Positions 5,511 to 64,000 of a DNA stretch of 64,000 nt are shown piece by piece; the stretch's first letter is position 1; the number at the start of each line of letters is the position of its first letter. The position numbers and the translations under genes are program-made. Source of the DNA: an uncultured bacterium (GTDB lineage Bacteria; Patescibacteriota; JABMPQ01; CAVVCK01); contig CAVVCK010000001.1 in the NCBI GenBank assembly GCA_963746775.1, forward strand, positions 275,050 through 339,049, in the 5' to 3' direction. A model generated the notes under the pieces. That model was not told where the DNA came from and made no database searches. It saw only the letters and a program-made list of their open reading frames with translations.

Positions 5511-5598
5511 TGGATAAAATTCCAAACTGCAAGCACCAAACTCCAATTAAATTACAAATATTTTGGAATTTGTAATTTGTTTTTTGGAATTTTTTTGA

Positions 5599-5672
5599 GC
5601 CAGGGTAGCTCAGTTGGTTAGAGCACGAGAATCATAAACTTGAGGTCGTGGGTTCGAATCCCACCCCTGGTA
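5599..5672 (+). tRNA. tRNA with CAU anticodon. This is elongator tRNA-Met or the lysidine-modified tRNA-Ile2.
   Basis: Cloverleaf GCCAGGG/CCCTGGT acceptor (G1:U72 wobble), D arm tagctcagttggttagagc, anticodon loop aUCAUAa, and T arm gtgggttcgaatcccac. Confidence 0.75.
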
Positions 5673-5702
5673 TAGAAGTTAAAATTAAAAACATTTTACA
5701 AT

Positions 5703-5766
5703 GGAGCCGTAGCTTAGCTGGTTTAAAGCGATCCGATGTTACATCGGATAGATCGTGAGTTCAATC
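5703..5766 (+). pseudogene. Degenerate tRNA-Asp-like copy 1. The 5' acceptor and D arm match tRNA-Asp, the anticodon arm is replaced by a perfect 8-bp hairpin, and the T arm is decayed.
   Basis: ggagccgtagcttagctggtttaaagcg is identical to the first 28 nt of the tRNA-Asp at 6102. It is followed by atccgatg-tta-catcggat and then agatcgtgagttcaatc, a decayed form of agatcgtgggttcgaatcc. Confidence 0.55.
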
Positions 5767-5769
5767 AAA

Positions 5770-6042
5770 ATGAAAATGAAAAATGGTTATGTTTATATTT
5801 TAAAACGCTCTAACGATACCTATTATATTGGCAGTACTAAAAATATTAAAGATAGAATAAATAGACACAAATCTGGTAGAGTTAAATCTACAAAAAATTT
5901 ATTACCTATAATACTAGTTTTTTATCAAGAGTTTGATACATTATTAAAAGCTAGAAGAATTGAATATAAATTAAAAAAATTAAAAAGTAGAAAAATTATA
6001 GAAAAAATTATTAAAGACAATATCATTACAATGGAGCCGTAG
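5770..6042 (+). CDS. Small stand-alone GIY-YIG nuclease-domain protein (UPF0213/YhbQ-like). The track starts it at GTG 5755; ATG 5770 is more likely.
   Basis: GYVYILKRSNDTYYIGSTKNIKDRINRHKSG...E matches the GIY-YIG core (GxYxYIL, YIGxT, R..xH, distal E). It is about 90 aa, as in YhbQ-type proteins. Confidence 0.75.
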   Translation: MKMKNGYVYILKRSNDTYYIGSTKNIKDRINRHKSGRVKSTKNLLPIILVFYQEFDTLLKARRIEYKLKKLKSRKIIEKIIKDNIITMEP

Positions 6043-13975: not shown

Positions 13976-14119
13976 TTTCTATAATTAAAATTTTTAAGAT
14001 ACCAAAAAATAAGGTTTCTTTTTATTTATATTTATTTATACGCTATTATCTTCTCTTTGTTTCAAAATATTTAAATTAATTAAAAAATACCTATTAAACA
14101 ATCTTGTTAATTATAAACT

Positions 14120-14395
14120 TTACTCAACCACCCTAATTGCCTTCCCCTCTATTATTGCTTCAGACATTTTTCTATAAGCAGAAGATAGGATTCTCTGAAA
14201 AGTACTCTGAGAAGTCTTCATCGCTTTCGCACATTCAATTTGATCCAAATTTTCTATATTTTTTAATCTTAGTGCTTCTACTTCTTCTCTAGTTAATTCA
14301 ACTATTTCCAAATGCCTAACAGGTATTCCTTGCGGTTTAAAATATTTTACTTTTGGATTAAATCTAATCCTTCGACAAAGTTTTGGTCTTACCAT
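14120..14395 (-). CDS. DUF134/UPF0251-family predicted DNA-binding protein.
   Basis: MVRPKLCRRIRFNPKVKYFKPQGIP...LTREEVEALRLKNIENLDQIECAKAMKTSQSTFQRIL carries the characteristic N-terminal RPxxCRR..F.P...YFKP motif and a sigma-70 region-4-like HTH. Confidence 0.7.
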   Translation of the reverse strand: MVRPKLCRRIRFNPKVKYFKPQGIPVRHLEIVELTREEVEALRLKNIENLDQIECAKAMKTSQSTFQRILSSAYRKMSEAIIEGKAIRVVE

Positions 14396-14459
14396 AATAT
14401 TAATAGTTTATATAAATACTAACCCGTAGAGACAATATACAAATTGCCTCCACAAATCA

Positions 14460-14699
14460 TTATTTCTCAAGGCTCTTTTTCTCCTCTTCTATTGCTTTCA
14501 ATTCTTCTCTCAACATTTTTTCCTGGTTATTTAACATTTTCATTTTATCTTCCTTGGAATCAAACTGCAAACCCATTCTCATCCCACGATTATAACATCT
14601 TCCTCCAAATCCTTTTTTCATTCCTTGACCGCAATTACCCATTCCTCTACCTGTTCCAGATCCTGCGCCTTGAGGACCTGTTCCGTCAAATTCTGGCAT
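14460..14699 (-). CDS. DUF5320-like small protein. The likely true start is the internal ATG at 14699; the track ORF extends to 14777.
   Basis: MPEFDGTGPQGAGSGTGRGMGNCGQG... followed by a C-terminal coiled coil. A strong GGAGGTGG site lies 5 nt upstream of the 14699 ATG. Confidence 0.55.
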   Translation of the reverse strand: MPEFDGTGPQGAGSGTGRGMGNCGQGMKKGFGGRCYNRGMRMGLQFDSKEDKMKMLNNQEKMLREELKAIEEEKKSLEK

Positions 14700-14898
14700 A
14701 TTTACCACCTCCCTTCCTCGCCCGCCGAAGCCTAAGCGAAAACGGGTCATTGCTCGTCTACGCTTTGGTATAGGCAAACTATTATTTTTCTTAATTCTAT
14801 TTTAAATATATACCCATAACTAATTTATGTCAAATATTTTTTTTGCTTTTTTTAAAAAACTGTTATAATGTTATTTCAATAAAAAATAATTAAAAATC

Positions 14899-38106: not shown

Positions 38107-38683
38107 TTAATTTATAGAATTTACTCTAATACCCTCTAATGCCTTCATATCTACTACACCTTCATTGTTTTCTTCCACACTAATCACACTACGCACTATT
38201 TCTTGAACTTGTTTTTCACCAAACTTCTTGACCGTATAATAATAACTAGAAAAAGAATTTTCTTTTAATTCTGCAAAGGATTGCCAATAACATAGCCAGT
38301 TACCTTCCAAGATACTTCTTCGTTTTTAATATAAAAAACTTTAGTGCTTTGCCAAAATGTTTCATAAGGAACTTGGTAAAGTTTTCTGTATTCTCGTGAA
38401 GTTCCACTGTGAAGTATATTTTTCAATTGAGTCATCTTTCTGCCATCATCTAAATGAAATTTTAATGAAAATGGTTTAAATTAATGCTAAAAGCTAAAAT
38501 AGGAACTTTTAAAACTTGTTTTACTTGTTTAATTTTATTTAAAATAATCTGTTTTTGGGGTATTTCTTTGAAATAAGGATAGTGAGTAAAAGTAGAAGTG
38601 GTCAGAAAATAATAGGTATTATCTGGCCAGCGAATTTTATGCCGTTTAGGGAGAGGTTGTTTCATTTTTTTATCTTCAATCAA
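38107..38683 (-). pseudogene. IS200/IS605-family HuH tyrosine transposase (RAYT-like), disrupted by at least two frameshifts.
   Basis: Three frames together read MKQPLPKRHKIRWPDNTYYFLTTSTF...ILAFSINLNHFH / LKFHLDDGRKMTQLKNILHSGTSREYRKLYQVPYETFWQSTKVFYIKNEEVSWKVTGYVIGNPLQN / ...FAELKENSFSSYYY. This matches RAYT/TnpA motifs (NHxH HuH, WQ, YI..NP, WSSY). Confidence 0.65.
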
Positions 38684-39264
38684 TAATTTCTGCCATGGGC
38701 AGAAGAAACTCCCGCCATGGGCGGGATAGAAGAAATATTCATACTAAATTCACACCCGCAATAATGCTGTCTGTATAAATTATATTTTTTACTTAACTCT
38801 ACTGATTTTCTAAAACCATCTTTCTTTTTAAAATCTATATCTAAAAATTTTATTTTAAACTCATTACCTAATTTATCCCCTATCTTTTTAATTTTTGCAA
38901 AATTTTTATAAGGTGAAATAGTCAAAGTTGTTGTAAAATAATCAAAACCTTCTCTGCTTGTTTCCTTAGCAACTTCCCTCAATCTTATCTCATAACATCT
39001 TAAACATCTCCTACCACCCTCTAGTTCTTTTTCCAAACCTCTCACCTGCTCTAACCAATTTTGATGATTATAATTTGCTTCAATTAACTTAATATTTATT
39101 TCTTTACAATATTTTTTTGTCTCTTCTAGTCTCTTTAAATATTCTTTTTCAGGATAAATATTGGAGTTACAAAACATACCAGTCACTTCATATTCTTCAC
39201 TTAATCTTTCAATAGAAGCAGTGGAACAAGGAGCGCAGCAGATATGGAGTAGAACTTTTTTCAT
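38680..39264 (-). CDS. queH: Epoxyqueuosine reductase QueH (DUF208), with a C-terminal extension encoded by the REP palindromes.
   Basis: LLHICCAPCS N-terminal motif and C-terminal YRQHYCGCEFS. The last ~20 codons (MNISSIPPMAGVSSAHGRNY) are read through the GC-rich palindromes. Confidence 0.8.
   Translation of the reverse strand: MKKVLLHICCAPCSTASIERLSEEYEVTGMFCNSNIYPEKEYLKRLEETKKYCKEINIKLIEANYNHQNWLEQVRGLEKELEGGRRCLRCYEIRLREVAKETSREGFDYFTTTLTISPYKNFAKIKKIGDKLGNEFKIKFLDIDFKKKDGFRKSVELSKKYNLYRQHYCGCEFSMNISSIPPMAGVSSAHGRNY
38688..38726. repeat. REP-like CCATGGG palindromes (right flank). They are embedded in the 3' end of the queH ORF.
   Basis: ttctgccatgggcagaa and tcccgccatgggcggga. Confidence 0.6.
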
Positions 39265-50883: not shown

Positions 50884-50913
50884 CTATCTTAAATCGCAAG
50901 AACATTGTGAAAA

Positions 50914-50943
50914 CCCCTCCTACCTCCCCTTGGTAAGAGGAGG
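50914..50943. repeat. GC-rich imperfect hairpin cccctcctacc...ggtaagaggagg (right flank), just after the polA stop.
   Basis: Shares cccctcct(t)acc and aggagg arms with 50493-50513. Confidence 0.5.
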
Positions 50944-50945
50944 AA

Positions 50946-53705
50946 TTAAATTTTCAAATCCTCCATACTTCCCCAACTATCCCCCACCTCCATATCAATC
51001 TTCAAAGGTATATCTAACTTATAAATATTTTCCATTATATTTTTAATTTTTTCAGCATATTTTTCTAACTTATCCTCTTTTATTTCAAAAATCAATTCAT
51101 CATGTACTTGTAAAATCATTTTTAAATCACTATTATTCTTATCTAAATTAAATTCTTCAAAAATTTTAATCATAGCTAACTTTATAATATCAGCCGCTGT
51201 CCCTTGTAAGGGCATGTTAACAGCCATACGTTCCGCTGCTGCTCGAAGCATTGGTTGTTTAGCTGTAATTTCAGGTAAATATCTTCTTCTACCTAATTGT
51301 GTTTCTACATACCCCTTTTTATTAGCAAATTCCAAAGTCTCTTCTGTATATTTTTTTATACTCGGAAAAGTTTTAAAATATTTATCAATAAAATCTTTTG
51401 CTTCATCTCGACTTATCTCTAAATTTCTTGAAAGCGCACCCGAACCCATACCATAAATTACTCCAAAATTAATAGTCTTAGCAAATCTTCTTTCATCATA
51501 ATCTATATCGCCTATATCCTTGCCAAAAACTAGGGAAGCAGTTCTTTTGTGAATATCTTCATCATTTTTAAAAGCTTCCATTAAATTTTCATCTTTAGAC
51601 ATTTGCGCTACTAATCGAAGTTCGATTTGGGAATAATCGGCTGATAACAATTTACAACCAGATTCTGCCACAAAAGCTTTTCTAATTTCTCTGCCTATTT
51701 CCGTTCGAATAGGAATATTTTGAATATTAGGATCAGAAGATGACAGCCTGCCGGTAGAGGTTATAGTTTGGTTAAAAGAAGTGTGAATCCGTCCTGTTTT
51801 AGAATTAATTAATTTAGGTAAAGCATCGATATAGGTATTTTTCAATTTATTATGCTCCCGATATTCTTCAATTAGAGGAATAATAGGATGAGCACCATGT
51901 AATTTTAAAAGTTCCGGAGCTGCCGTCGAATAACCTAGGGTTGTTTTCTTGATCCCTTTGGTGGGAATTTTTAATTTTTCAAATAAAATTACCGATAACT
52001 GCTGGGTAGAATTAATATTAAAATCTGAGGTCCTCGCTTGCTCATAAATTTTCTTTTCTAAGCTCGCTAGTTTATTAGCAAAGCTATCAGAAAGTTTTTC
52101 TAAAAATTTACTGTCTACTTTTATCCCATCCATTTCCATATAGGCCAAGACATTCAGTAAAGGCATTTCAATATCCTGAAATACTTTTTGCAACTTTTTT
52201 TCTTTGATTAATTTTTTAAAAAATATTTCCTTGAGTCGGTAAGTATAATCAGCATCTTCACAAGAGTAATAAGCCAATTTCTCTAAATCAACTTCTCCTA
52301 TTTTAATTTTACTCTTTCCTTTGCCAACCAATTCATCATAGCTCATCATTTGATGGCCTAATTCCTGAAAAGCTAAATTATCTAAAGAATTTCCTCTGGA
52401 ATTAGATGACAAAATATAGGAAGCAATCATGGTATCAAAATCTATATTAGATAATTCTAAGCCATAATTTTTTAAAACTATTAAATCATATTTACCATTT
52501 TGGGCAATCTTTTTTATATCTTTATTTTCTAAAATTATTTCTAGCTTATTTTTCAGATCTTCAAATTTATCAATAACATTTCTCGGCAAATACCAGGAGT
52601 TATTCTCTACCGAAAACGATATGCCAACTAATTCAGCTTCAACTGGTTTTACACTGGTCGTCTCGGTATCTATAGCAAATTCTTCAACTTTTTCTAAAAT
52701 ATTTATTAAATTTTTAAATTTTTCCTTACTATCAACTAATTCATAATTGAATTTTCTCAAATCTATTTTTTCTTTTGCATCTTTACTTTCTCCCATTAAG
52801 AGACTTTGCTGTTTTCCATCTGATTTACTTTCTGGCAACCTGGAAAGTAAACTTCTAAATTCTAATTCTCTTAAAAGTTCAATCACCTTATCTTTGTCAT
52901 AATCCTTAACTTCACACTCTTTTAAATCTATTTTTAAGTCCATATCAATTATAATCGTTGCTAATTCCTTGCTCATTCTGGCCTGCTTTTCTTGCTCTAG
53001 TAAAATTTTTCTAATTCGATCTGATACCCCTTCAATTTTTTCTGACTTTTTTAATTCTTTATATAAATTTTCAATAGTACTAAATCTTTGCAATAAAATA
53101 GAGGCAGTCTTCTCGCCTATTCCTTTTACTCCGGGAATATTATCAGAAGGATCGCCTCGAAGGCCTTTGTAATCAATTAACTGCTCTGGTGTAATACCAA
53201 ATCTCTCTATTACCTTTTTTTCATCGTAAAATACTGTGTCCTGCATACCACGACGCATAGTATAAACCTTGGTATTATTATCCACTAATTGTAATTCGTC
53301 CAAATCACCGGTAACAATAATATTATTTATTTTTATTTTCTTAGATAAAGTTCCAATTATATCATCAGCTTCATACCCTTGTTTCTCATAAATGGGAATA
53401 TTAAAAGCTTCAACTATTTGTTTAATTCTCGTAATTTGATCATATAATTCCTGGGGAGCTTTTACTCTGGTTGCCTTATATTCTTTGTACATTTTATGTC
53501 TAAAAGTAGGCCCCTTCATATCAAAAGCAACCGCAATATGAGTCGGCTTTATATCTTCTATAGCTTTAAGTAAAATAGAGGTAAAACCAAAAACAGAATT
53601 AACTAATTCACCGGATTTCGTAGTTAAAGGAGGAATGGCGTGATAGGCCCGATGAATTAAGGCATTGCCGTCTATGAGAACAAATTTAGATTTATTTTTT
53701 GTCAT
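50946..53705 (-). CDS. polA: DNA polymerase I.
   Basis: 5'-3' exonuclease N-terminus (LIDGNALIHRAYHA), 3'-5' exo-like middle, and polymerase motifs A (DYSQIELR), B (RRxAKxxNFGxxYG) and C (QVHDE). Confidence 0.9.
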   Translation of the reverse strand: MTKNKSKFVLIDGNALIHRAYHAIPPLTTKSGELVNSVFGFTSILLKAIEDIKPTHIAVAFDMKGPTFRHKMYKEYKATRVKAPQELYDQITRIKQIVEAFNIPIYEKQGYEADDIIGTLSKKIKINNIIVTGDLDELQLVDNNTKVYTMRRGMQDTVFYDEKKVIERFGITPEQLIDYKGLRGDPSDNIPGVKGIGEKTASILLQRFSTIENLYKELKKSEKIEGVSDRIRKILLEQEKQARMSKELATIIIDMDLKIDLKECEVKDYDKDKVIELLRELEFRSLLSRLPESKSDGKQQSLLMGESKDAKEKIDLRKFNYELVDSKEKFKNLINILEKVEEFAIDTETTSVKPVEAELVGISFSVENNSWYLPRNVIDKFEDLKNKLEIILENKDIKKIAQNGKYDLIVLKNYGLELSNIDFDTMIASYILSSNSRGNSLDNLAFQELGHQMMSYDELVGKGKSKIKIGEVDLEKLAYYSCEDADYTYRLKEIFFKKLIKEKKLQKVFQDIEMPLLNVLAYMEMDGIKVDSKFLEKLSDSFANKLASLEKKIYEQARTSDFNINSTQQLSVILFEKLKIPTKGIKKTTLGYSTAAPELLKLHGAHPIIPLIEEYREHNKLKNTYIDALPKLINSKTGRIHTSFNQTITSTGRLSSSDPNIQNIPIRTEIGREIRKAFVAESGCKLLSADYSQIELRLVAQMSKDENLMEAFKNDEDIHKRTASLVFGKDIGDIDYDERRFAKTINFGVIYGMGSGALSRNLEISRDEAKDFIDKYFKTFPSIKKYTEETLEFANKKGYVETQLGRRRYLPEITAKQPMLRAAAERMAVNMPLQGTAADIIKLAMIKIFEEFNLDKNNSDLKMILQVHDELIFEIKEDKLEKYAEKIKNIMENIYKLDIPLKIDMEVGDSWGSMEDLKI

Positions 53706-53809
53706 ATATTTTATTTTATCTTATTAAAAAGGTTAAAACAAGTTTAAAAAAGACCTATTTTATATAATAGATCCTTTATAATTTGGTATTTGAATTTTGA
53801 AATTTTAAT

Positions 53810-56800
53810 CTATTCCTCCACCTCCACCTTCGTCCCCACCCCAACTATATAGAAGCCTTCATTAAGTAATTCGGAATCCTTAGAATAAAATCTGGCATGA
53901 GTAGGCCCTTGAATAGGAGTAATTATCATATCCTTTTCTTTTGAACCTCCTTGTAATTCGTCATTATGAAAATTAAATGCCTGCACTTTAGTCTTGCCAT
54001 CTGTATGCTCTGGATAGGCCATGAAGCCGGCAGTAATAGGTTGGCCCTCTTTATTAAATATCCTCACATGAGCAGAATACATTTGAGCTACTGTTATAAT
54101 TTCAGCCGGACCCGAAGTACTATCTAGGTCGGTGGCTTCTAAATCTATACCACCATGATAGGTTGGATCATAAGCGTAAAAATCAGGTCTTAATTTCTTA
54201 CCATTTTTATTAAATATTCTAACTACGCTGGATCCTTTCTTAGAACCTACAACTATTTCTTTCTCTCCACCTGTACCATCCAAATCAGCTACCGATAAAA
54301 CTATGCCTTGATTGTAATCAGTACTGTTTTTGTCAAAAGGAATAATGTCAGGAATAATTTGTTTTAGTTTTTTGGTCTCAGGGTCTTTACCATAAATCAT
54401 AATAGTATTATGGTCAGAGACTAATACTTCCTTAGCCCCATTATTATTTTCTAGATCTACTACATCCAAATCGAAAAGTATATCCTTAACTGATTGATAA
54501 TTCTGTAGATAAGGTAAAAAGGCAGTGATTGGAGACATGATTTCCTTACCGTCTCTATTAAAGACTTTGAGAATACCATCGGAAAAAAGAATAATAATCT
54601 CTAAATCACCACTGTCTTGATCTGGTCCTTCCAGATTAGCTATTTTAACTATACTGTTACCTCGGAAGGAGTCTTCTCGGGCGAAGAAGGAATTTAATAC
54701 CTTCCCGTCCTTATTGAAGATACGAATGTGGGCTGCTCCATCCATAGGAGAAGTTACTATTTCTTGTTCTCCTCCTGTTCCCTGAAGGTCACCCACAGCA
54801 ATGTTTACTCCATTGGTGTAGGATTTGTCATAAGCTAAAAAAGGAGGGGTTAAGATAAAGCCTTCTTTAGAATAGATTCTAACGTAGGGAGCACCACTTC
54901 GGGGAGCGGTGACTATTTCTTTAGTACCGTCGTAAGTTAAATCAGCTACTTCAATATTGGCTCCGTCATCTATTATGCCTTGTTCTTCTTCTAACCTAAT
55001 GTCTTCTTCTGTTTTGGTTGTTTGGGCACGCCAGATTTCAGTTACACCCTCTTCGGTTAAACTATCTACGGTAGGTTCTTCGGCTGGAGTAATTAAGAAG
55101 ATATAATCGGAAAGAATAGTTTGATTTTGAGCATAGTCGCGGATGCGGATTTCGAGAGTAACTTGTTCGTTTACTTCAAAGTCTCTTTCAGGAATAAGGG
55201 TTACTTTAAAATCAGAAGCCGACCCATCAAAGGCTTTGGTAATATTTTTATGTATTCCTGAACTTGAACCAGTAACAGTTGTACGCAAAGTTCCAATATC
55301 TACTCCGCTCTCGCTATCTTTGGCATGAAATGAAATAGTAGTATTAGGTGATATCTTTATAGCTCCCTTTTCCGGTGAAAGATCGGTAATAGTGGGCGGT
55401 GTAATATCACCGATTGCTCCACCTTCTTTAGTAGTGAAAGACCAGGCCGAAGTAGCAGAATTAGTTCCGTCAGACGCCAGAATAAAAACATTTACTTCTT
55501 GTAAATAATCAAAATCATTATCAGGATTAAGAGTTACATTATAACCTCCTGTACCATCAGAAGTAATGGTACAAGAATAATTACTCTCGCAAGAACCATT
55601 ATTTATAGCCGGACTGCCTTCAATTAAAACATTTAAAGTACTTATATTTATACCAGTATAAATATCATCTAATTCAAAATAAATATTGGTATCTATACCC
55701 ACATTAGTAGCTCCATCAGCCGGTGACTGATGAGAAATAGTAGGAGTTGTAACATCGGGATCAGCATCTGTCGTTCCAGAGTCCGTACCATCAAAAGCTG
55801 TCTCAATACCATCTTCATTGCGAGCCTTAGCGCGAGCAGTATAAGATGTTTCGGCACTAAGCCCAGTCACTGTGGTCGTCCCCCAGGCTGCTTTTGTCTG
55901 CCAAACCTCGCTGGCACCCAAAAATCCATCAGCTTGCACATAATAATCATTAGTACCATCAGATATTCGGATAGCATAAGTAGTATAAGCAGGATTACTA
56001 TCACTACCTAAGGTAACATCGAGAGAATTATTAGTAACATTACTAATGTTAGGTTGTCCGGGAACTTCTGCTAGAGTATAAAGACTATCCGTTCCGCCAA
56101 AAGCTGTTTCTACATCATCACCATTACGAGCTTTGGTCTGGAAATCATAGGAAGTATTAAGGCTAAGACCAGTTACAGTGACTGTACTCCAAGTAGCATT
56201 ATCTTGCCAGATAGCAGTAGCGCCTAGGGATCCATCAGCTTGTACGTAATTACCAGATCCAGTTTCTTGAATAGCAAATTCAGTATTACTAGGATTAGAA
56301 TTAACATCAAAAGCAACATCTAAAGTAGAGGTTGTAGGATTACTCACTACTAAAGCGCCAGGGGTATTAGCCGCAGTGTAGGTAACTATCTCCGTAGCGT
56401 TAGCTTTATTTCCATAACTATCATACGTCCAAATATTAGCTACATACTGGGTATTAACATTAAGAGGATTAGTCGTTGTGGTACCACCAGGAGTATATGC
56501 TCCAGTTGCAATAGTAGTATGCAGAGTATCCGTCTCAGTTACACCAGATGCTCCTTGTTTATAATAAATAGAATAATGATCTAGATTAGTATCACTGCCG
56601 GCTGCACCCAAGGTATAAATAATTGAGTTAGCAGTAATAGAATCAATCATTAAATTACCAGAGGTCGTGGGATCTACATTGTCAAGAGTCAAGGTTGTAT
56701 CAGCCGAAACAGAAGGAGTTAAACCGTTATGAGCAGTAGTCCTAACACAATAAGTACCGTCAGCTGCTGGCTCATCCGTAGCCGACAACCAATCAAAATC

Positions 56801-59800
56801 TACAGTGTTGGTACCCACATCAACCACCGAGACACTGCCTACTTGATATTCATTACTATTGTTAATAGTAGGGGTACCACTATCTGCGCTATATGTTCCC
56901 ACGGTAGTATCTATAGTGGGATCAGATGTTCCTGCTGAACAATCAGCACCTGCTTTGTATTCTAGTTTAGCAGATAAAATACCCGAAGTATTTAGATCAT
57001 CTAGTTCTAAACTTATATCAACTGCTCCAGTACCATCAGTTTTCTCTGCCACTGAATTGATAGCATTATACGAAGTAGCTATAATAAATGACATATTAGA
57101 TAAAATGGCAGTTTCTCCTTCATCAGCATGTAAATAAGCCCTAACGTTAAAATCACCTCCCAAAGATAAATTTGCTAAACAAGTATTCGTAATACCAATA
57201 GCTGTATTAGTCTGAGCATAGTCATCAGCGGCTGAGGTTAGAGTATCCCCTACACAATAATTCCATGTAGTACCACCATCATCTGATATTTGATATCTTA
57301 CTTCGCCAGTTCCAGAAGAAGTAGCATTAAAATTATAAACCGAGTAAAAAGAATGAGAAGCATCAAATACTATTTTCTGATCAATTGAAGAAGGAATATT
57401 TGTCTCGTCATCTAAAGTATAAAAAGTACTAGGATCCGATTGATTGGAATAAGCGGCTTTAATCCAGTTAGCATCTCTATTAGTACTAGAAACCCTTAAC
57501 TCGTCTATACTGCCATCAAAATATCTATTTGGTATATCATAATTATGGTTATAATAAGCGCCGCCTATTTTACCTATATTGTGCCAGGTATTAGAATCAT
57601 AAATAATAGTTCCGCTTGATCCTAGGCTTATAGTTTGTAATAAGCTGCCATTACGATAAAAATAGCCATTGTTTCCATCTTTAACTACAGACAATAATTG
57701 CCATTCGCCAGTAGTATAAGCTCCAGGACTCGTTTCTGTTGTATCATCATCATTGTCACCGTTTATATCAAAAACAATAGTTCGATTATTAGTATCACCC
57801 GAAAGACCAAACATCCAGCCAGAATCTGTGCCAGGTATATCATACCTATTATCAAATATCACACCGGCATCATCAGAATCAGAATAAATCCAAGCTGATA
57901 TACTAAAAGATTCGGTAGTAAAATCAGTATTAGCACCAGAAGTTACACTATAAAAAGAACTAGAACCATTAAAAGTATCAGCTCCATCAAGCCAAGTTGG
58001 ACCACTAACATCCTGGGTAACACTAGTAGGAGTTGCGGTATTAGAATTAGCGGAATCATCTATATTTCCTGAAGTCTCATTCATATGCCAAACAGTTTCA
58101 AAATTACCATCCCCACTCCAAGTACCACTCACATTTTCCTGACTGCCAATAGTATTATTACCATAATACATATATATTTCAGTACCTAAGGCTAAAGAAG
58201 GAATGTTAACCCAAGCAACTAGCTCACCAGTTGCTCCATCAAAATATTCTATCTCATGATCTAATTTTACATCTGCCATAGAAGCAAATAATATATCCTC
58301 ACCATTACTCTGAGCATCCGCTGCTAGATCTGAATCAGAAGATAAGGAAATCAGTACAGGAAAATTAGTCTGAGTTGCCGGCAGTAAAGAACTGTTGTTA
58401 GTAAAAGTAATCTTTTTACGCGAAGCCCAATCAATATCGTACCAATCACTAGAATATGAAAACTGAGCATCTCCTGCTGAATAAGTAATGTCATCATCAA
58501 CAGTATATAAATCATCACTATAAAAATTTCTACTTATAGGTAAATATCCCGGATCGGTTTGAATAGTAAAATTATTTTCACTAGTATAGCAAGTATTGCT
58601 GCCATCATTATTACTACAAACTCTTAATTTAACAGTTGTACTGGATATATTAGGAATTGTCCAAACATAAGATTTTATTTCTGTGGGCGCACTAGTCGAG
58701 ATAACCGAAGAAGTTACTTCTGTTGAAGATCCAAAGTCATCTGTTGAATAATATATGTTTACCGTCTCATTACTCTCCCCACCAGATGAACCCCATAAAA
58801 TAGGTACTTGCTGTCCCTGCCCCACTGTTCCTCCTTGATCAAAGTTATATAATTCTATTGCCCTAGGTGCATAAAAGGTAGATTCCGTTGATGACCAAAT
58901 CCCAGCCCCATAAGCATTGCTAAATCTTATGCGCCAATAATAGGTTGTATTATATGATAATTGAGATCCATCATAAGTTATATTACCGCTCCTAACTCCA
59001 TCAGCTATATCGACAATATCAACATTACTTGACCACAAGGTAGAAGAAAAATCAGAGTTATCATCCACTTCTATATCTGCTGTAATACAATTACCAGACG
59101 GTGTATTACAGATAGCAGAAAAAACTGGAGTTAAATCTGTTATATTGGTAGGATTAATATCACCAGTTGAAGCATCAGTGCTATGCGAATACAAAATATC
59201 AGGAGCCGAAGGAGATAGTTGTGATGAGGAAAATAAACCATCGCTGCCATTTACTCCACCACCAGAAGTAGTACCGCCAGTTCGAGTAACATTTCCTGAA
59301 TTAATACTATTTGAGATAATATACTCTAATAAGACACATCCCCCTCCCCCTCCCCCTCCACCATTCGAAGTATTTCCACCAGTTACCGTAAAACTAGCAG
59401 GTGTGCCAGCTATAGTATCAGCACTAATTTTTACACCACCACCTGCTCCACCCCCAGAATAGCCACTAGCAGCAGCGTTACTGCCATCAGCCGTAATAGT
59501 ACCATCAATAGTTGCAGTTCCGCTAACATCAAAAATAATTAGACCACCACCATTACCAGTATTATAGTTACTGCCTGCATAAGTTGTTCTCCCACCACCA
59601 GAACCCATAGTATCAGGATCAGTAATATCACAATAAGCTGTACCACCAGCATCTCCTTCATCATCATTTCCTCCATTTCCACCATGCGCTCCTCCACTAC
59701 CACTATTTCCGGAACCAAGTATTCCTGGTCCTAATCCATAACCATCTCTATGACTAGTCGTACCACCATCATACCCTACTCCATCAACACTAGCTGAGGC

Positions 59801-62489
59801 AGAAATACCAATATTTAAACTTGAGGCTACAATATTCAAAATATGAGTTTGGGAATCAAAATTATCTCCATGAGTTAGAATCCCTCCTGTCATTACTAAA
59901 TCATCAATTGATAAAGCAGTTGCAGTAGTATAGCTATTTAAAGTTGTAGTACCTCCTGTTATGGTAAGATCAGTAAGGGAAAATGTAGCCCCGCTATCTA
60001 ATCCTAGACTGCCAGCTGTAGTAATGGTGGTTATAGGCGTGTTAGCAGTAGCTCCACTCCCCAATATCAAACCGCCATCATTAGTAATATTAATAGTGGA
60101 CGTATTATTAATTTGTCCACCAGAAACTATAGATACATCAAGATTATCATAACTATTGCCTGTATTATAAGTAAATGTACCCGCAACCTCTAACGTACCT
60201 GTCTCATCTCCCCCAAAAGGACTGGCATCACTGACTGTTAAAGATTTCCCATTAGACACAACATAATTTGCTTCACTACTTAGCGCTATAAAATCAACAG
60301 TTAAAGAACTTATTGCTTGGGTAGAATCTGCCCCTTTTGTACCATTATTTTCTACAAATAAATCTCCATTGGTTCCGTCTTGTTTAATTAGAACTTGCCC
60401 ACCACCACCGTATTGGCCACTTGCCGAAGCAGTTCCACCATAAGTAGCAATAGAAGCAACATCAAGAATACTAGAAGAAGTGGTATATTCTAACAACATG
60501 CAACCTCCGCCTCCGCCTCCGCCTCCATTAGTAAACACTGCTGCCTGTGGCTGTAACACTAGTTGGCGTACCGGCAATAATATCAGCTGATATCTTGATA
60601 CTACCGCCTGCACCGCCGCCAGCATAATTAGAATCATGTGTTACTGCATCGGCTGTAACAGTACCATCAATAGTAACTGTACCGGAAGCATCGAGAATAA
60701 TTAAACCGCCACCGTCACCGCCGCCGTATGATCCATTATAACCTACGGCACCACCCGAACCTATAGTGGCTGGATTAGATATATCACAATAGGCTGTGCC
60801 GCCTCCTTCACCAGCAGAATCATCTCCTCCATCACCACCATGACCCGCACCACCACCAAAGCTATTAGCAATACCATATATCCCAGCACCAGGTCCATAA
60901 CCATTCGTATGACTAACAACCTTACCACCATCATAACCCTTGCCATCAGCGTTGATAGAAGCAGCAGCTCCAATGTTAGCACTAGAAGCAGAAATATTAA
61001 TTACGTTAGTCTGAGCACTAGAGTTATCACTATGAGTTAGAACCCCTCCAGTCATTACCAAATCACCTAAAGATAGAGCATCAACAGCGGAATAATTGTA
61101 TAGAGTAACAGTACCACTACTTATATTTAAATCAGCCATAACAAAAGTAGCACCTTGATCTAAGCCTAAAGTGCCGGCAGTATTAACTGTATTCATTATT
61201 GTATCAACCGTAGCTCCATCACCAAGTATTAATCCACCATCATTAGTAATATTAATAGTAGTTGTATTACTCAAAATTCCACCAGATAGAACTGAAACAG
61301 TTAAATTATCATAATTACTACCTACTGTATAATCAAAACTTCCAGAAACTTTTAATAGTCCAGTTCCATCTCCCTCAAAAGGACTAGCCTTAGTAACTGC
61401 AAAAGATTCCCCGTTGGGAACTAAATAGTTAGCCTCATTACTAACAGTAATAGAATCAACTGTTAGCGAATTAGCCACCGTATCTTGACTAGAATCTGCC
61501 CCTTCCGTACCGTTATTTTCTATAAATAAATCTCCATTAGTTCCGTCTTGTTTAATTAGAACTTGCCCACCGCCACCATATTGGCCACTGCCAGTACTAC
61601 CACCATACATATCGATAGCAGAAACATCGAAAACAGGAGTAGATGTGTATTCTAATAGTACACAACCTCCGCCTCCGCCACCTGGAGTAAAAGACGTATT
61701 ACTACCAATCGCGGTAAAACTGGAAGGAGTACCAGCAATGACATCAGCACTAATCTTAATCCCACCACCAGACCCGCCACCGGCATATTGACTACTATGC
61801 GCTACTGCATCGGCTGTAATAGTACCATCAATAGTTACAGTTCCTTCAGCATGGAGAATAATTAGACCACCACCGTCACCGCCGTCGTATGATCCATTAT
61901 AACCTACGGCACCACCCGAACCTATAGTGGCTGGATTAGATATATCACAATAGGCTGTGCCGCCTCCTTCACCAGCAGAAACATTTCCCCCGTCACCGCC
62001 GTGTCCGGCACCACCACCAGCATTACTAGCAGTATATATCCCCGCTCCTGGACCATAACCATTCGTATGACTAAAAACTGTACCTCCATCATAACCCTTG
62101 CCATCAGCGTTGATAGAAGCACCAGAATAAACTGTAATGTCGGTATGAGATGTTATGTCTATAGAATAAATTTGGGTAGTAGAATTATCTTGATGAGTAA
62201 GTACCGTTGTATCACCACCTACACTACCTACAACCAAAGAATTTACCGTAGCTGAATTAGTAAGAGTACAGGTACCATTGCCATAAAGAGTCAAATCATC
62301 ACCACTATTAAAGTCAACACCTTGGGCAATACTAGGATTAGTAGAACAATCAATCGAAGCTGGAGCAGCAGTAGTGGACTTTAATTCATAGGTTCTTAAT
62401 ATTAAAAAAGCAATAAGAAAAAATACGGAAATAAAAAATCCCGCTTTTAAAAATTTTAATAATATTCTTTTTGTATTTTTATTTTTCAT
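53810..62489 (-). CDS. Giant secreted/surface protein gene, about 2890 codons if read across the internal frameshift near 60528-60545. The track splits it into 60528-62489 and 53810-60637.
   Basis: N-terminal signal/TM (MKNKNTKRILLKFLKAGFFISVFFLIAF). Three ~385-aa Gly-rich beta-helix-like tandem repeats (GYDGG..., GGGTAYCDI, GGGGGGC.LLEY, QVLIKQDGTNGDLF). Further along are FN3-like beta domains, a LamG/concanavalin-like segment (ELRVSSTNRDANWIKAAY) and C-terminal FG-GAP-like propeller repeats (IVTAPRSGAPYVRIY, AAHIRIFNKDGK...). The first ~40 codons of the 53810-60637 track ORF (MILIM...) are the out-of-frame reading of the repeat, not a real start. Confidence 0.65.
60530..62300. repeat. Near-identical tandem repeat of about 1.16 kb within the giant gene. 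There are about 1.5 high-identity copies plus a more diverged third copy near 59300-60500.
   Basis: Identical stretches occur at an offset of about 1161 bp, e.g. cggcaccacccgaacctatagtggctggattagatatatcacaataggctgtgccgcctccttcaccagcagaa at about 60739 and again at about 61900. Paired spurious track ORFs sit at 60761/61922 and 60840/62001. Confidence 0.75.
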
Positions 62490-62569
62490 TTAAATATAAA
62501 AAACATTATATACATTATATTATAACATTTTTAAAGATTTTTCTCAATGATAATAAATGTGGATATCTG

Positions 62570-64000
62570 CTATCTTCCCAAAAACCCTATAGCTACATCA
62601 ACACCACCCCGAAAATTTTCATCATAAGCAAAAAAATTAGTCTCTCGAATCGCTAGCCCTTCTGCTTTAAAGGCTCTAACTTGCGGACCTCCAGCATTCC
62701 CTGCTCCCACTATAATTTCGGCCTGACCATCATCATCTATATGGCCCATATCAATCAATCCCCCCACAGGAAAATCGGCAAATGCTTTCCACTCTCCAAT
62801 TATAGTTTGTCCACTATTATATCGGTAAACTTTACACCAAGACTGTTCTTTCATTTGGCATACTCCTATTTCATCCTTGCCATCACCATCGATATCACCT
62901 GCGGCTACATCAATACCTCCCCGATAATCAGGGTGAAAAGCAAAAAATTGAATTGGTTTTAGAGTGCCGTCAGCCTCAAATACACGAATTTGAGGTCCTC
63001 CACCTTCTCCTGCTCCTACTATCACTTCAGCCCGGCCATCGGCATCTATATCACCCATGGCAATTGATCCTCCTCCTTCAAAATCACCAAAAGCATTCCA
63101 TTCACCTACTATTTCCCTGGCCACATTATATCTATAAACTTTAACTAAAGCCTGACCTTGTGAGGCTTGAATTACGGCTATTTCATCTTTGCCATCACCA
63201 TCGATATCACCTGCGGCTACATCAATCCCTCCACGAAAATCTAAATCAAAAGGCCAAAGGTCAATTCCCCGAGGAGTACCATCTTTTTCAAATATTCTCA
63301 CCTGCGGTCCACCGCCTGCCCTTGGTGCTGTTATAATTTCATCTTCACCATCTGCATCTACATCACCTAAAGCTACCCTTACTCCCCCCTTAAAATCTTC
63401 CCCGTAAGCAAAAAGTTTATCAGGATCAGATTCTGCTTCACCTCCTGTAGTAAAAGCTCGGATATGAGGACCGCCACCTACACCCGCTCCTGTTACAATA
63501 GAATTATATTCAGATAGTTCCGTAGAAACTTGCCCCACTTCACCAAAATATTCATCTATTTTATTCCACATATCCGATCTTGTACCGTCATAACCTAGAG
63601 CCCAAATACCAATTCCCCCCAAATCCTTCGTATTTACTAAATTATATTTATAAGAAATACTGGTTGGATCTTCATACCAAACTTGATGATATTTTCCATA
63701 TTTATAATACGGAGTCAGAGAATCTTCATCCCAAATGCGGGTGAAAGTATCCCGCTCAGACATAATTTCTGCATAAGTTTTAGCTTCTGCCGTATCAAGC
63801 GTACTAGCTGGAACACTATTACTATCAACTTCCCAATCATAACCATAATAAGGTACACCTAAAAATATTTTTGATTTATTATAATTAGTTTCTGCTAAAT
63901 AAGTATTAATAGAATTAGTTACATTATAATTACCCCAGGTACTGCTATTAGAAAATGGTGAAACAGGACCTGCTTGCGGTGCAGTCGACCAATGATAATC
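62570..64000 (-). CDS. GH18-like glycoside hydrolase domain fused to FG-GAP/integrin-alpha-type propeller repeats. It is 5' partial and continues past the window end.
   Basis: The reading frame stays open from 63763 to 64000 (…KIFLGVPYYGYDWEV…). The N-terminal region KDLGGIGIWALGYDG resembles the GH18 C-terminal motif. Repeats GDIDGDGKDEI / GGPQVRIF occur four or more times. Confidence 0.65.
   Translation of the reverse strand, partial: DYHWSTAPQAGPVSPFSNSSTWGNYNVTNSINTYLAETNYNKSKIFLGVPYYGYDWEVDSNSVPASTLDTAEAKTYAEIMSERDTFTRIWDEDSLTPYYKYGKYHQVWYEDPTSISYKYNLVNTKDLGGIGIWALGYDGTRSDMWNKIDEYFGEVGQVSTELSEYNSIVTGAGVGGGPHIRAFTTGGEAESDPDKLFAYGEDFKGGVRVALGDVDADGEDEIITAPRAGGGPQVRIFEKDGTPRGIDLWPFDLDFRGGIDVAAGDIDGDGKDEIAVIQASQGQALVKVYRYNVAREIVGEWNAFGDFEGGGSIAMGDIDADGRAEVIVGAGEGGGPQIRVFEADGTLKPIQFFAFHPDYRGGIDVAAGDIDGDGKDEIGVCQMKEQSWCKVYRYNSGQTIIGEWKAFADFPVGGLIDMGHIDDDGQAEIIVGAGNAGGPQVRAFKAEGLAIRETNFFAYDENFRGGVDVAIGFLGR

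What the first reader, a model, noticed from the sequence alone, without database searches (positions are those of the whole stretch)
53810..62489. Giant surface-protein gene interrupted by a frameshift exactly at the junction of near-identical 1.16-kb tandem repeats
The two track ORFs (60528-62489 and 53810-60637) overlap by about 110 bp in different frames. Repeat unit 1 reads agt aat acg tct ttt act cca ggt ggc. The junction copy reads agt gtt tac taa tgg agg, which is an 8-nt deficit. This gives ...SSVY-stop in one frame and ...VFTNGGGGGGGG in the other. Either the gene is truly split or pseudogenised, or the collapsed repeats were mis-assembled. If bridged, the product is about 2900 aa. 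It has three Gly-rich beta-helix-like repeats, FN3-like and LamG-like modules, and an FG-GAP-type propeller. That is the sort of giant adhesin small-genome episymbionts are thought to use for host attachment.
Basis: seen in the sequence. Interest (0 to 1): 0.65.

Follow-up and report, generated by a model that had tools for sequence, protein, structure and literature searches.

The report
Giant surface-protein gene, one-base frameshift
One extra base splits a single gene of about 2,900 codons, encoding a giant cell-surface protein of a small-genome (Patescibacteria/CPR) bacterium, into two reading frames; this is an ordinary broken gene or sequence error, not two real genes and not a repeat mis-assembly.

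Summary
The two ORFs (60528-62489 and 53810-60637, minus strand) do overlap by 110 nt in different frames. Deleting one T from the run at 60533-60535 gives a single 2,892-aa ORF.

The lesion is a net +1-nt insertion, not an 8-nt deficit. The 1,161-nt repeats are not near-identical: units 1 and 2 share 74% nt, and unit 3 about 63%. The site lies in a stretch that is locally only 61-71% identical and outside every exact repeat of 20 nt or more, so repeat collapse is unlikely.

All 45 equivalent sites in homologues read through in frame. Full-length relatives are single ORFs with the same N-terminal anchor.

The domain claims mostly hold: DUF2341, Laminin_G_3, fn3, Big_5 and C-terminal FG-GAP repeats. 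The Gly-rich repeat has no Pfam, NCBIfam or PDB match but models confidently as an all-beta solenoid.

I could not settle whether the extra base is a real recent mutation (about 0.45) or a technical indel (about 0.40). The public record is the same assembly. Independent Logan contigs of run ERR11571143 match 23.3 kb of the window with no indel, but stop 1.1 kb short of the site.

Programmed frameshifting, phase variation and a functional split have no support. Interest is low.

The parts
62519..62547 (-). Promoter-like site (TTGAGA-17-TATAAT, TG-extended, 11/12) 30 nt upstream of the ORF1 start. No comparable minus-strand site lies ahead of ORF2.
   Evidence: The number of promoter-like sites in the region is no higher than in shuffles, so only the position is suggestive.
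60528..62489 (-). ORF1, 653 aa: the 5' part of the gene (signal anchor, A1, B1 and most of A2), ending at TAA 60528-60530.
   Evidence: Identical to the public protein P0221.
62391..62489 (-). N-terminal signal peptide or membrane anchor (aa 1-33, MKNKNTKRILLKFLKAGFFISVFFLIAFLILRT). This is the only strongly hydrophobic segment of the whole 2,892-aa product.
   Evidence: Kyte-Doolittle 19-aa maximum 2.54 at aa 13, against a maximum of 1.47 downstream of aa 640. The same type of N-terminus occurs in P0001, P0002 and L082.
61620..62201 (-). Gly-rich module A1 (aa 97 to about 290).
61041..61619 (-). Module B1 (aa 291-483), a regular short-strand beta solenoid.
60458..61040 (-). Gly-rich module A2, which carries the frameshift.
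60528..60540 (-). Frameshift site: CAGTGTTTACTAA on the gene strand. It has one base too many (T-run 60533-60535), and the in-frame TAA at 60528-60530 follows at once.
59879..60457 (-). Module B2.
59294..59878 (-). Gly-rich module A3, with no B module after it.
53810..60534 (-). 3' part of the gene in the +1 frame (about 2,240 codons, with no further stop or frameshift). The public record calls it from GTG 60559 (P0257, 2249 aa).
58121..58306 (-). DUF2341 domain.
   Evidence: 33.6 bits, cut-off 23.4
57461..57943 (-). Laminin_G_3 (concanavalin A-like lectin) domain.
   Evidence: E 7.5e-17
55802..56062 (-). Fibronectin type III domain (best Pfam stretch). Neighbouring FN3-like sequence was not delimited.
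55121..55408 (-). Big_5 bacterial Ig-like domain (best of two stretches).
53813..54960 (-). C-terminal FG-GAP-like repeats (best Pfam stretch 54773-54943), homologous to the FG-GAP region of the upstream neighbour.
   Evidence: FG-GAP_3, 29.2 bits, cut-off 26.9; BLASTP E 5e-20
62570..64000 (-). Upstream neighbour: end of a GH18 domain plus FG-GAP repeats. The frame is open to the window edge, so the gene is cut by the window and is not frameshifted.

Best explanation
This is one gene for a 2,892-aa, N-terminally anchored, multi-domain cell-surface protein of a Patescibacteria (CPR) bacterium. The layout is signal anchor, then a Gly-rich beta-solenoid A1-B1-A2-B2-A3, then an Ig/FN3-like region, DUF2341, a LamG lectin domain, FN3, Big_5 and FG-GAP repeats. 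In the sequenced genome the gene carries a genuine and very recent single-base insertion (T2->T3 at 60533-60535) inside module A2. Translation from the only start that has an export signal stops after 653 aa, mid-solenoid. The cell would therefore display at most a truncated stub, and the ligand-binding distal 2,240 residues would be lost. Anything restarted internally would lack a signal peptide and stay in the cytoplasm. Shown: one gene, a +1-nt lesion, the architecture, and no export signal downstream. Inferred: that the extra base is biological rather than technical, that it is recent (a single lesion in 8.7 kb), and that the protein serves attachment.
For: Deleting one T restores a single ORF of 2,892 aa. 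Units 1 and 3 and all 45 equivalent motif instances found in the homologues scanned (120 sequences on file) read through in frame. P0001 (60% id) and P0002 (50% id) cross the site in one ORF and share the N-terminal anchor. L082 encodes more than 2,467 aa in one frame, matching query residues 2-2851. In the AF2 model of unit 1 (pLDDT 88, pTM 0.90) the equivalent site is a Gly-rich turn between strands 173-175 and 192-197 of a solenoid that continues for 200 more residues, so neither ORF ends or begins at a domain border. There is no hydrophobic segment downstream of aa 640. The only good promoter-like site is upstream of ORF1. For the base being real: the site is not in an exact repeat (longest shared k-mers are 95, 36 and 32 nt, all elsewhere) and is locally 61-71% identical to the other units. 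T3 is not a long homopolymer. Logan contigs of run ERR11571143, built by a different assembler, match 23.3 kb of the window with 0 indels and 1 substitution, including 5.6 kb of this gene. The same contigs reproduce a second, clearly decayed gene with two frameshifts (Y1 transposase-like, 38110-38668). This indicates that the assembly reports real pseudogenes faithfully.
Against: No independent sequence crosses 60533-60535. The public record (NCBI/ENA, contig of 547,309 bp) is the same assembly. The Logan contig stops at 59397, and the Logan assembly is fragmented in the repeat region. No related contig was found in JGI metagenomes. A single lesion with 2,240 intact codons after it, in a 30% GC genome, is exactly what a technical indel would also look like. 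The site lies 8 nt upstream of a G-rich (GGAGGC)n tract inside a repeat region. Single-base indels and local assembly errors are documented to split giant genes in both long-read and Illumina-only metagenome assemblies (bioRxiv 10.1101/2023.11.21.568195).
Confidence: 0.45

Rival explanations
1. Technical indel. The organism's gene is intact (2,892 aa). The extra T arose in sequencing, consensus calling or polishing, or as a local assembly error, next to the G-rich low-complexity tract inside the repeat region.
For: There is a single lesion and no other defect in 8.7 kb. It sits 8 nt upstream of GGAGGCGGAGGCGGAGGCGGAGG. The k=31 Logan assembly of the same organism is fragmented in exactly this repeat region, and its contig L093 begins about 25 nt before the equivalent G-rich tract of unit 3, so the region is hard to assemble. 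A 547-kb contig through such repeats suggests long reads or scaffolding. There is published precedent for single-base indels and local mis-assemblies splitting giant genes. One substitution difference between the record and Logan at 38684 shows the two assemblies are not perfectly concordant.
Against: There are 0 indel differences in 23.3 kb between the record and the independent assembler. The site is not in a long homopolymer or an exact repeat. No other intact-looking gene in the window is split: the adjacent same-strand ORF pairs that were checked are distinct genes. The only other broken gene has two lesions, and both are reproduced in Logan.
Confidence: 0.4
2. Two bona fide genes. ORF1 makes an anchored 653-aa protein. 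ORF2 is translated separately, by coupling or restart at GTG 60559 or at ATG 60499, which follows GGAGG-like Gly codons.
For: An ATG (the M of CMLLEY) lies 28 nt after the stop and is preceded by GGAGG. The public annotation lists two genes. ORF2 is fully open.
Against: The break is mid-solenoid, not at a domain border. ORF2 has no signal peptide or TM segment, although all its domains are extracellular types. There is no promoter-like site ahead of it. Only 2 of 44 genes in the window have an SD-like leader, so GGAGG is unlikely to be an initiation signal here. M at that position also occurs in unsplit homologues (P0015, P0060, P0107). No homologue is split at this site (45 of 45 in frame).
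Confidence: 0.05
3. Programmed recoding or a switch. Either a +1 ribosomal frameshift occurs at GUU-UAC-UAA-U (a 'shifty stop'), or slipped-strand phase variation turns the adhesin on and off.
For: A +1 shift is what is needed. A stop codon follows immediately, and surface adhesins are classic phase-variable genes. A G-rich tract that could form structure lies just downstream.
Against: There is no CUU-UGA-C-type slippery codon: tRNA-Val on GUU or tRNA-Tyr on UAC re-pairs poorly in the +1 frame (established knowledge of prfB-type sites). There is no SD-like stimulator upstream. The shift is not conserved in any of the 45 homologous sites. The T-run is only 3 nt, and the neighbouring repeat is a hexamer that cannot change frame.
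Confidence: 0.04
4. Repeat-collapse or chimeric mis-join between units of the 1.16-kb tandem repeat.
For: The gene holds a 1,161-nt-period repeat with exact matches of 95, 36 and 32 nt between units 1 and 2.
Against: The units are only 74% identical overall. The site is 190 nt from the nearest exact repeat and lies in the least similar segment (61-71% nt). The spacing of all repeat families is regular at 1158-1168 nt. The unit number (3 A modules) is within the range seen in relatives (2 to 4). A mis-join would give a hybrid unit, not a clean +1 base.
Confidence: 0.05

Closest known systems
Giant membrane or surface proteins of CPR/Patescibacteria, e.g. the ten longest proteins (1392-4163 aa) of Vampirococcus lugosii (PMC8080830)
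   Same: The size class is the same. Both are predicted to be membrane or surface located in a reduced-genome bacterium and carry adhesion-type domains (integrin/FG-GAP, fibronectin). A role in recognising and attaching to a host is proposed but untested.
   Different: The lineage is different (PolA is only about 50% identical to any GTDB species representative). The Gly-rich A/B solenoid units that dominate the N-terminal 1,100 aa are not among the domains named in the passages I read, and I did not check that paper's supplementary table. Here the gene is interrupted.
Giant genes of Omnitrophota and the curation problems described for them (bioRxiv 10.1101/2023.11.21.568195)
   Same: These are also very long multi-domain surface-protein genes. 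Adjacent 'two giant genes' were shown to be one gene after a local assembly error was corrected, and single-base indels in long-read assemblies ended giant genes prematurely.
   Different: Those genes are about 10-25 times longer, belong to another phylum and have other domain sets. Reads were available there to settle the question, and they are not available here.
Beta-helical adhesins: autotransporter passengers TibA and Ag43, L. reuteri SRRP, S. pneumoniae PfbA
   Same: The predicted fold class is an all-beta solenoid of short strands. These proteins head the Foldseek PDB list.
   Different: No match is significant (best E 0.034, TM no higher than 0.28). There is no Pfam Beta_helix or autotransporter hit and no C-terminal translocator or LPXTG. 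Anchoring is by an N-terminal hydrophobic segment. This is a resemblance of fold class only, not membership.
Uncharacterised Gly-rich repeat proteins of Magasanikbacteria, Peregrinibacteria, Verrucomicrobiota and Planctomycetota (P0003-P0005, P0010, P0012 and others, named 'hypothetical protein' or 'beta strand repeat-containing protein')
   Same: They share the A or A+B unit, with conserved LTHxxN, DGxGY, GGGHGGxGG, GGGLIxL, TADG, GGGAGGGIKI and GGGGGGC/R-hydrophobic-Y motifs. The family has 11,850 representatives at E<=1e-3.
   Different: The number of units ranges up to 13 matched stretches per protein in the listed hits, and the C-terminal domains differ. None of the homologues examined is interrupted at this site.
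prfB-type programmed +1 frameshift and SSR-based phase variation of adhesin genes
   Same: A +1 shift next to an in-frame stop, in a surface-protein gene.
   Different: The defining sequence features are absent (see the membership tests).

Membership tests
Single gene disrupted by a frameshift (pseudogene or sequence error) | The two ORFs match consecutive parts of single proteins in relatives. | tested here: met
   P0001 and P0002 cross the site in one ORF. L082 matches query residues 2-2851 in one frame.
Single gene disrupted by a frameshift (pseudogene or sequence error) | A one-base edit restores one ORF whose local sequence aligns with paralogous and homologous copies. | tested here: met
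   Deleting one T gives 2,892 aa. The result, GSSVTNGGGGGGGGC, has the same length as GGNTSNGGGGGGGGC in unit 3. All 45 homologous sites are in frame.
Single gene disrupted by a frameshift (pseudogene or sequence error) | The downstream ORF lacks its own export signal, promoter and domain-border start. | tested here: met
Single gene disrupted by a frameshift (pseudogene or sequence error) | The lesion is present in independent reads or assemblies (real) or absent from them (artefact). | not testable with these tools
   The public record is the same assembly. Logan contigs stop at 59397.
Mis-assembly by collapse of near-identical tandem repeats | The units are near-identical, and the breakpoint lies inside shared exact sequence. 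| tested here: not met
   Units 1 and 2 are 74% nt identical, and 61-71% around the site. The nearest exact repeat (95 nt) is 190 nt away.
Programmed +1 ribosomal frameshift (prfB type) | A slippery P-site codon that re-pairs in the +1 frame, followed directly by a poorly decoded codon or a stop. | tested here: not met
   The sequence is AGU GUU UAC UAA U. GUU->UUU and UAC->ACU re-pair poorly (inference from the known rules of prfB sites).
Programmed +1 ribosomal frameshift (prfB type) | An SD-like stimulator a few nt upstream, and conservation of the shift among orthologues. | tested here: not met
   No GGAGG-like motif lies upstream of the site. None of the 45 homologous sites is shifted. 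SD leaders are rare in this genome (2 of 44).
Phase-variable contingency locus (simple sequence repeat) | A long homopolymer, or a repeat with a unit length not divisible by 3, at the frameshift. | tested here: not met
   The T-run is 3 nt. The adjacent repeat is (GGAGGC) x 3.8, a hexamer. TRF found no short-period array.
FG-GAP / integrin-alpha-type repeats | A Pfam FG-GAP-family match above the gathering score. | tested here: met
   FG-GAP_3 scores 29.2 bits against a cut-off of 26.9 when the C-terminal 629 aa are scanned alone. It was not reported in the whole-protein scan. The region is homologous to the neighbour's FG-GAP region, which scores 76 bits.
FG-GAP / integrin-alpha-type repeats | The repeats form a closed seven-bladed beta-propeller. 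| not tested
   No structure prediction was made for the C-terminus.
Laminin_G_3, fn3, DUF2341, Big_5 | A Pfam match above the gathering score. | tested here: met
   62.3, 32.4, 33.6 and 27.5 bits, each above its cut-off.
Right-handed parallel beta-helix (pectate-lyase or autotransporter-passenger type) | Sequence-family membership (Pfam Beta_helix, pectate lyase or autotransporter models). | tested here: not met
   There were 0 Pfam and 0 NCBIfam families for ORF1 and for unit 1, even at E<=10. A PDB sequence-profile search gave only a chance hit to an antibody fragment.
Right-handed parallel beta-helix (pectate-lyase or autotransporter-passenger type) | Structural superposition on solved beta-helices. 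| tested here: inconclusive

The most novel reading that the evidence does not exclude
The +1 arrangement could be functional. One version is a shifty-stop +1 ribosomal frameshift (UAC-UAA-U, followed by a G-rich, possibly structured tract). The other is a reversible T2/T3 switch. Either way the cell would make mostly a short anchored 653-aa stub and occasionally the full 2,892-aa adhesin. That would be a new way of dosing or phase-varying a giant surface protein in a CPR bacterium.
Probability: 0.04. Interest if true: 0.6.

Novelty: new member of a known kind. Interest (0 to 1): 0.2.

Why it matters
The main value is for annotation and curation. The public record lists two proteins (653 and 2,249 aa) where there is one gene, probably one of the largest in a genome whose contig is 547 kb.

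If the extra base is real, this population has just lost the distal, ligand-binding part of a major surface protein. That would be a snapshot of surface-protein turnover in an episymbiont lineage. If the base is technical, the gene should be repaired before any analysis of CPR adhesin repertoires.

A by-product may matter more. The 190-aa Gly-rich module and its 195-aa partner form a large family (at least 11,850 clusters at 50% identity). It is confidently foldable but has no Pfam, NCBIfam or PDB counterpart. It is common in giant proteins of Patescibacteria and the PVC group (Planctomycetes-Verrucomicrobia-Chlamydiae), and structurally similar proteins occur in prasinoviruses.

Tried and rejected
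- TRF found nothing, because the 1,161-nt period exceeds its 500-nt limit. The repeat finder and codon-aware alignments replaced it.
- I looked for a second frameshift in the upstream GH18/FG-GAP gene, because its ORF starts with the end of a GH18 domain. The frame is simply open to the window edge.
- I tested synteny through PolA in GTDB species genomes. The best hits are only about 50% identical, and none has a related giant gene nearby.
- I searched JGI metagenome contigs for an exact DNA pattern across the site, allowing T2 or T3. There were 0 hits.
- The profile-based locus search gave 10 loci. Only L082 was informative.
- Exact look-ups of ORF1 and ORF2 in the contig index found nothing on record.
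- I predicted the k=31 unitig that should carry the site (60754->60374) and looked up its expected products. The 74-aa product was not on record.
- Nine candidate sequences, including four 'intact' variants, were absent from the protein collection. The positive control (the 1,861-aa Logan product) was absent too, so that test is uninformative.
- The second homologue search, with unit 2, was swamped by low-complexity Gly words and returned nothing.
- The contig of P0001 seemed at first to end its gene early. The contig folds back on itself at about nt 5532, which is a likely assembly hairpin, so it says nothing about the gene's end.
- The GGAGG-ATG idea of a restart site was rejected. SD-like leaders are almost absent in this genome, and Met at that position occurs in unsplit homologues.

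Full report
**Observation.** On the minus strand, ORF 60528-62489 (653 aa) and ORF 53810-60637 (2,275 aa) overlap by 110 nt in different frames. Direct repeats with start-to-start spacing of 1158-1168 nt fill 59300-62200. TRF missed them only because its period limit is 500.

**The lesion.** Aligning the three copies of the local motif shows that unit 2 has exactly one base more than units 1 and 3. Between the conserved GGY-AGY and TGY anchors there are 46 nt against 45 and 45. Removing one T from GTTTAC (60533-60535) gives a single ORF of 2,892 aa. Its local sequence, GSSVTNGGGGGGGGCMLLEY, has the same length as unit 3 (GGNTSNGGGGGGGGCVLLEY). The '8-nt deficit' came from aligning against unit 1, which has two more codons before a Gly run that is two codons shorter. 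After the TAA the old frame reads WRRRRRRRLHVVRIYHFF*, so stop-codon read-through is not an option.

**The repeats.**
- Phased on the LTHxDN motif, the units are aa 97-483, 484-870 and 871 to about 1065. Each consists of a Gly-rich module A (about 190 aa) and a module B (about 195 aa). The order is A1-B1-A2-B2-A3.
- Units 1 and 2 are 74.0% identical in nt and 69.5% in aa. Unit 3 is about 63% nt identical to either.
- Identity is patchy. There is a 95-nt exact match (60725-60819 = 61886-61980) and a patch of about 92%, most likely gene conversion.
- The frameshift lies in the least similar stretch (61-71% nt) and outside every exact repeat of 20 nt or more.
- The units are therefore not near-identical. 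The site is not at a meaningful 'junction', and a collapsed-repeat mis-assembly is unlikely.

**One gene or two.**
- The closest relatives are P0001 (marine sediment, 60% identity) and P0002 (50%). Both have the same N-terminal anchor and read through the equivalent site of each of their units.
- An HMM of the 60-aa site region found 45 instances among the homologue sequences on file, and all are in frame.
- L082, a JGI contig, encodes more than 2,467 aa in one frame, matching query residues 2-2851. Its identity to the distal domains is 57-63%.
- An AF2 model of unit 1 built with a 21-sequence alignment is confident (pLDDT 88, pTM 0.90) and all-beta with regular short strands. The equivalent of the frameshift site is a Gly-rich turn between strands 173-175 and 192-197. 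The solenoid runs on for 200 more residues, so the break is mid-domain.
- The only strongly hydrophobic segment in 2,892 aa is aa 13-31.
- The only good promoter-like site on this strand (11/12, TG-extended) is 30 nt upstream of ORF1.
- The ATG that follows the stop is preceded by GGAGG, but those are Gly codons. Only 2 of 44 genes in the window have an SD-like leader, and Met at that position occurs in unsplit homologues.
- I conclude with about 0.9 confidence that this is one ancestral gene with a +1-nt lesion.

**What the protein is.**
- Pfam gives DUF2341, Laminin_G_3, fn3 and Big_5 above their cut-offs.
- The C-terminal 629 aa scanned alone give FG-GAP_3 just above its cut-off. This region is homologous (E 5e-20) to the FG-GAP part of the upstream neighbour, a GH18/FG-GAP protein that runs off the window.
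- The A/B unit matches nothing in Pfam, NCBIfam or PDB sequences.
- Foldseek against PDB lists only beta-helix proteins (TibA, Ag43, SRRP, ice-binding proteins, PfbA, tailspikes), none significantly. BFVD gives four hits at E<=1e-3 to uncharacterised prasinovirus and phage proteins.
- A full HMMER scan of 1.84 billion representatives finds 11,850 proteins at E<=1e-3 and 3,746 at E<=1e-30. They carry up to 13 matched stretches and reach 7,134 aa.
- The organism is a Patescibacteria/CPR bacterium with no close genome in GTDB: the best PolA hit is about 50% identical.
- Giant membrane proteins with integrin and fibronectin domains have been proposed to mediate host attachment in the CPR bacterium Vampirococcus (PMC8080830). 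That role is inference here.

**Real or technical?**
- ORF1, PolA and ORF2 (called from GTG 60559) are in the public protein collection from NCBI/ENA. All sit on one contig of 547,309 bp. That is the same assembly, so it gives no independent support.
- Logan assemblies of run ERR11571143 hold the same organism. An 8,490-bp contig equals window 50908-59397 exactly. A 14,855-bp contig equals 30697-45551 with one substitution (at 38684) and no gap.
- A different assembler therefore reproduces 23.3 kb, including 5.6 kb of this gene, without a single indel.
- The same contig also reproduces a second broken gene, a Y1/IS200-like transposase remnant at about 38110-38668. It is spread over three frames, with two frameshifts in 600 nt, which is the signature of real decay.
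- The Logan contig ends 1.1 kb short of the site, and the Logan assembly is fragmented across the repeat region. Every attempt to reach the site-bearing contig failed or was uninformative.
- On the other side, a lone lesion followed by 2,240 intact codons, 8 nt from a G-rich tract in a repeat region, is exactly what an artefact looks like. Such artefacts are documented for giant genes (bioRxiv 10.1101/2023.11.21.568195).
- My estimates are: genuine recent mutation 0.45, technical indel 0.40, functional split 0.05, recoding or phase variation 0.04, repeat mis-join 0.05.

**Recoding and phase variation.** A +1 shift is required, but none of the defining features is present:
- GUU-UAC-UAA has no codon that re-pairs well in the +1 frame.
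- There is no SD-like element upstream.
- The shift is not conserved.
- The T-run is 3 nt, and the neighbouring repeat is a hexamer.

**Verdict.** The feature is an ordinary single-base frameshift in a giant CPR surface-protein gene, and reads from ERR11571143 would settle its origin in minutes. The most interesting by-product is the large, unmodelled Gly-rich solenoid repeat family.

Noticed in passing
window 59294-62201 (modules A1-B1-A2-B2-A3); alignment A2; model m23971c3776b3: The 387-aa unit (Gly-rich A module plus B module) has no Pfam, NCBIfam or PDB-sequence match, yet it models as a confident all-beta solenoid. It defines a very large family: 11,850 representatives at E<=1e-3, with up to 13 matched stretches per protein, in proteins up to 7,134 aa. 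Members come from Patescibacteria, Verrucomicrobiota and Planctomycetota. The best viral fold hits are prasinovirus proteins.
   Followed up: partly
window about 38110-38668, minus strand: An IS200/Y1-transposase-like gene is split over three reading frames (two frameshifts, both in short T/A runs). Stitched together, it hits Pfam Y1_Tnp at 22.1 bits, just under the cut-off of 23. An independent Logan contig (L094) has the same broken arrangement, so it is probably a real decayed pseudogene.
   Followed up: partly
window 38684: This is the single substitution between the window (A on the gene strand) and the Logan contig L094 (C). It falls in the last codon of the QueH-like gene 38680-39264. 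It is either a population SNP or an error in one of the assemblies.
   Followed up: no
window 62570-64000, minus strand: The upstream neighbour encodes the end of a GH18 glycoside-hydrolase domain followed by FG-GAP repeats and runs off the window. Its FG-GAP region is homologous to the C-terminus of the giant protein (E 5e-20). This suggests a shared surface or anchoring module, and a possible functional pair of glycan hydrolase and adhesin.
   Followed up: partly
whole window, 25 nt upstream of 44 ORF starts: Only 2 of 44 genes have a Shine-Dalgarno-like motif. Leaders are A/T-rich (typically ...AATAAAAAAATG), which suggests SD-independent initiation in this organism.
   Followed up: no
window 60725-60819 and 61886-61980: A 95-nt exact repeat lies inside units that are otherwise 74% identical. 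It is probably a recent gene-conversion tract between units 1 and 2.
   Followed up: no
L001 (contig of P0001), about nt 5516-5821: The MEGAHIT contig turns back on itself. Residues 2672-2773 of the homologue are encoded on the reverse strand right after the forward copy ends. This is a likely hairpin chimera, and it makes P0001 look prematurely terminated.
   Followed up: partly
window 13976-14898, minus strand: A gap between annotated-size ORFs holds two small ORFs. One looks DUF134-like (...RPKLCRRIRFNPKVKYFKPQGIP...). The other is Gly/Met-rich (...NMPEFDGTGPQGAGSGTGRGMGNCG...). I recognised both from memory only, and no RNA family was found there.
   Followed up: no
P0007 and P0008 (same 9,635-nt ENA contig): In another organism, two complete paralogues of this protein family sit on the same 9,635-nt contig, each with its own signal anchor. 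Real two-gene arrangements therefore exist in the family, but with duplicated N-termini, unlike the window.
   Followed up: no
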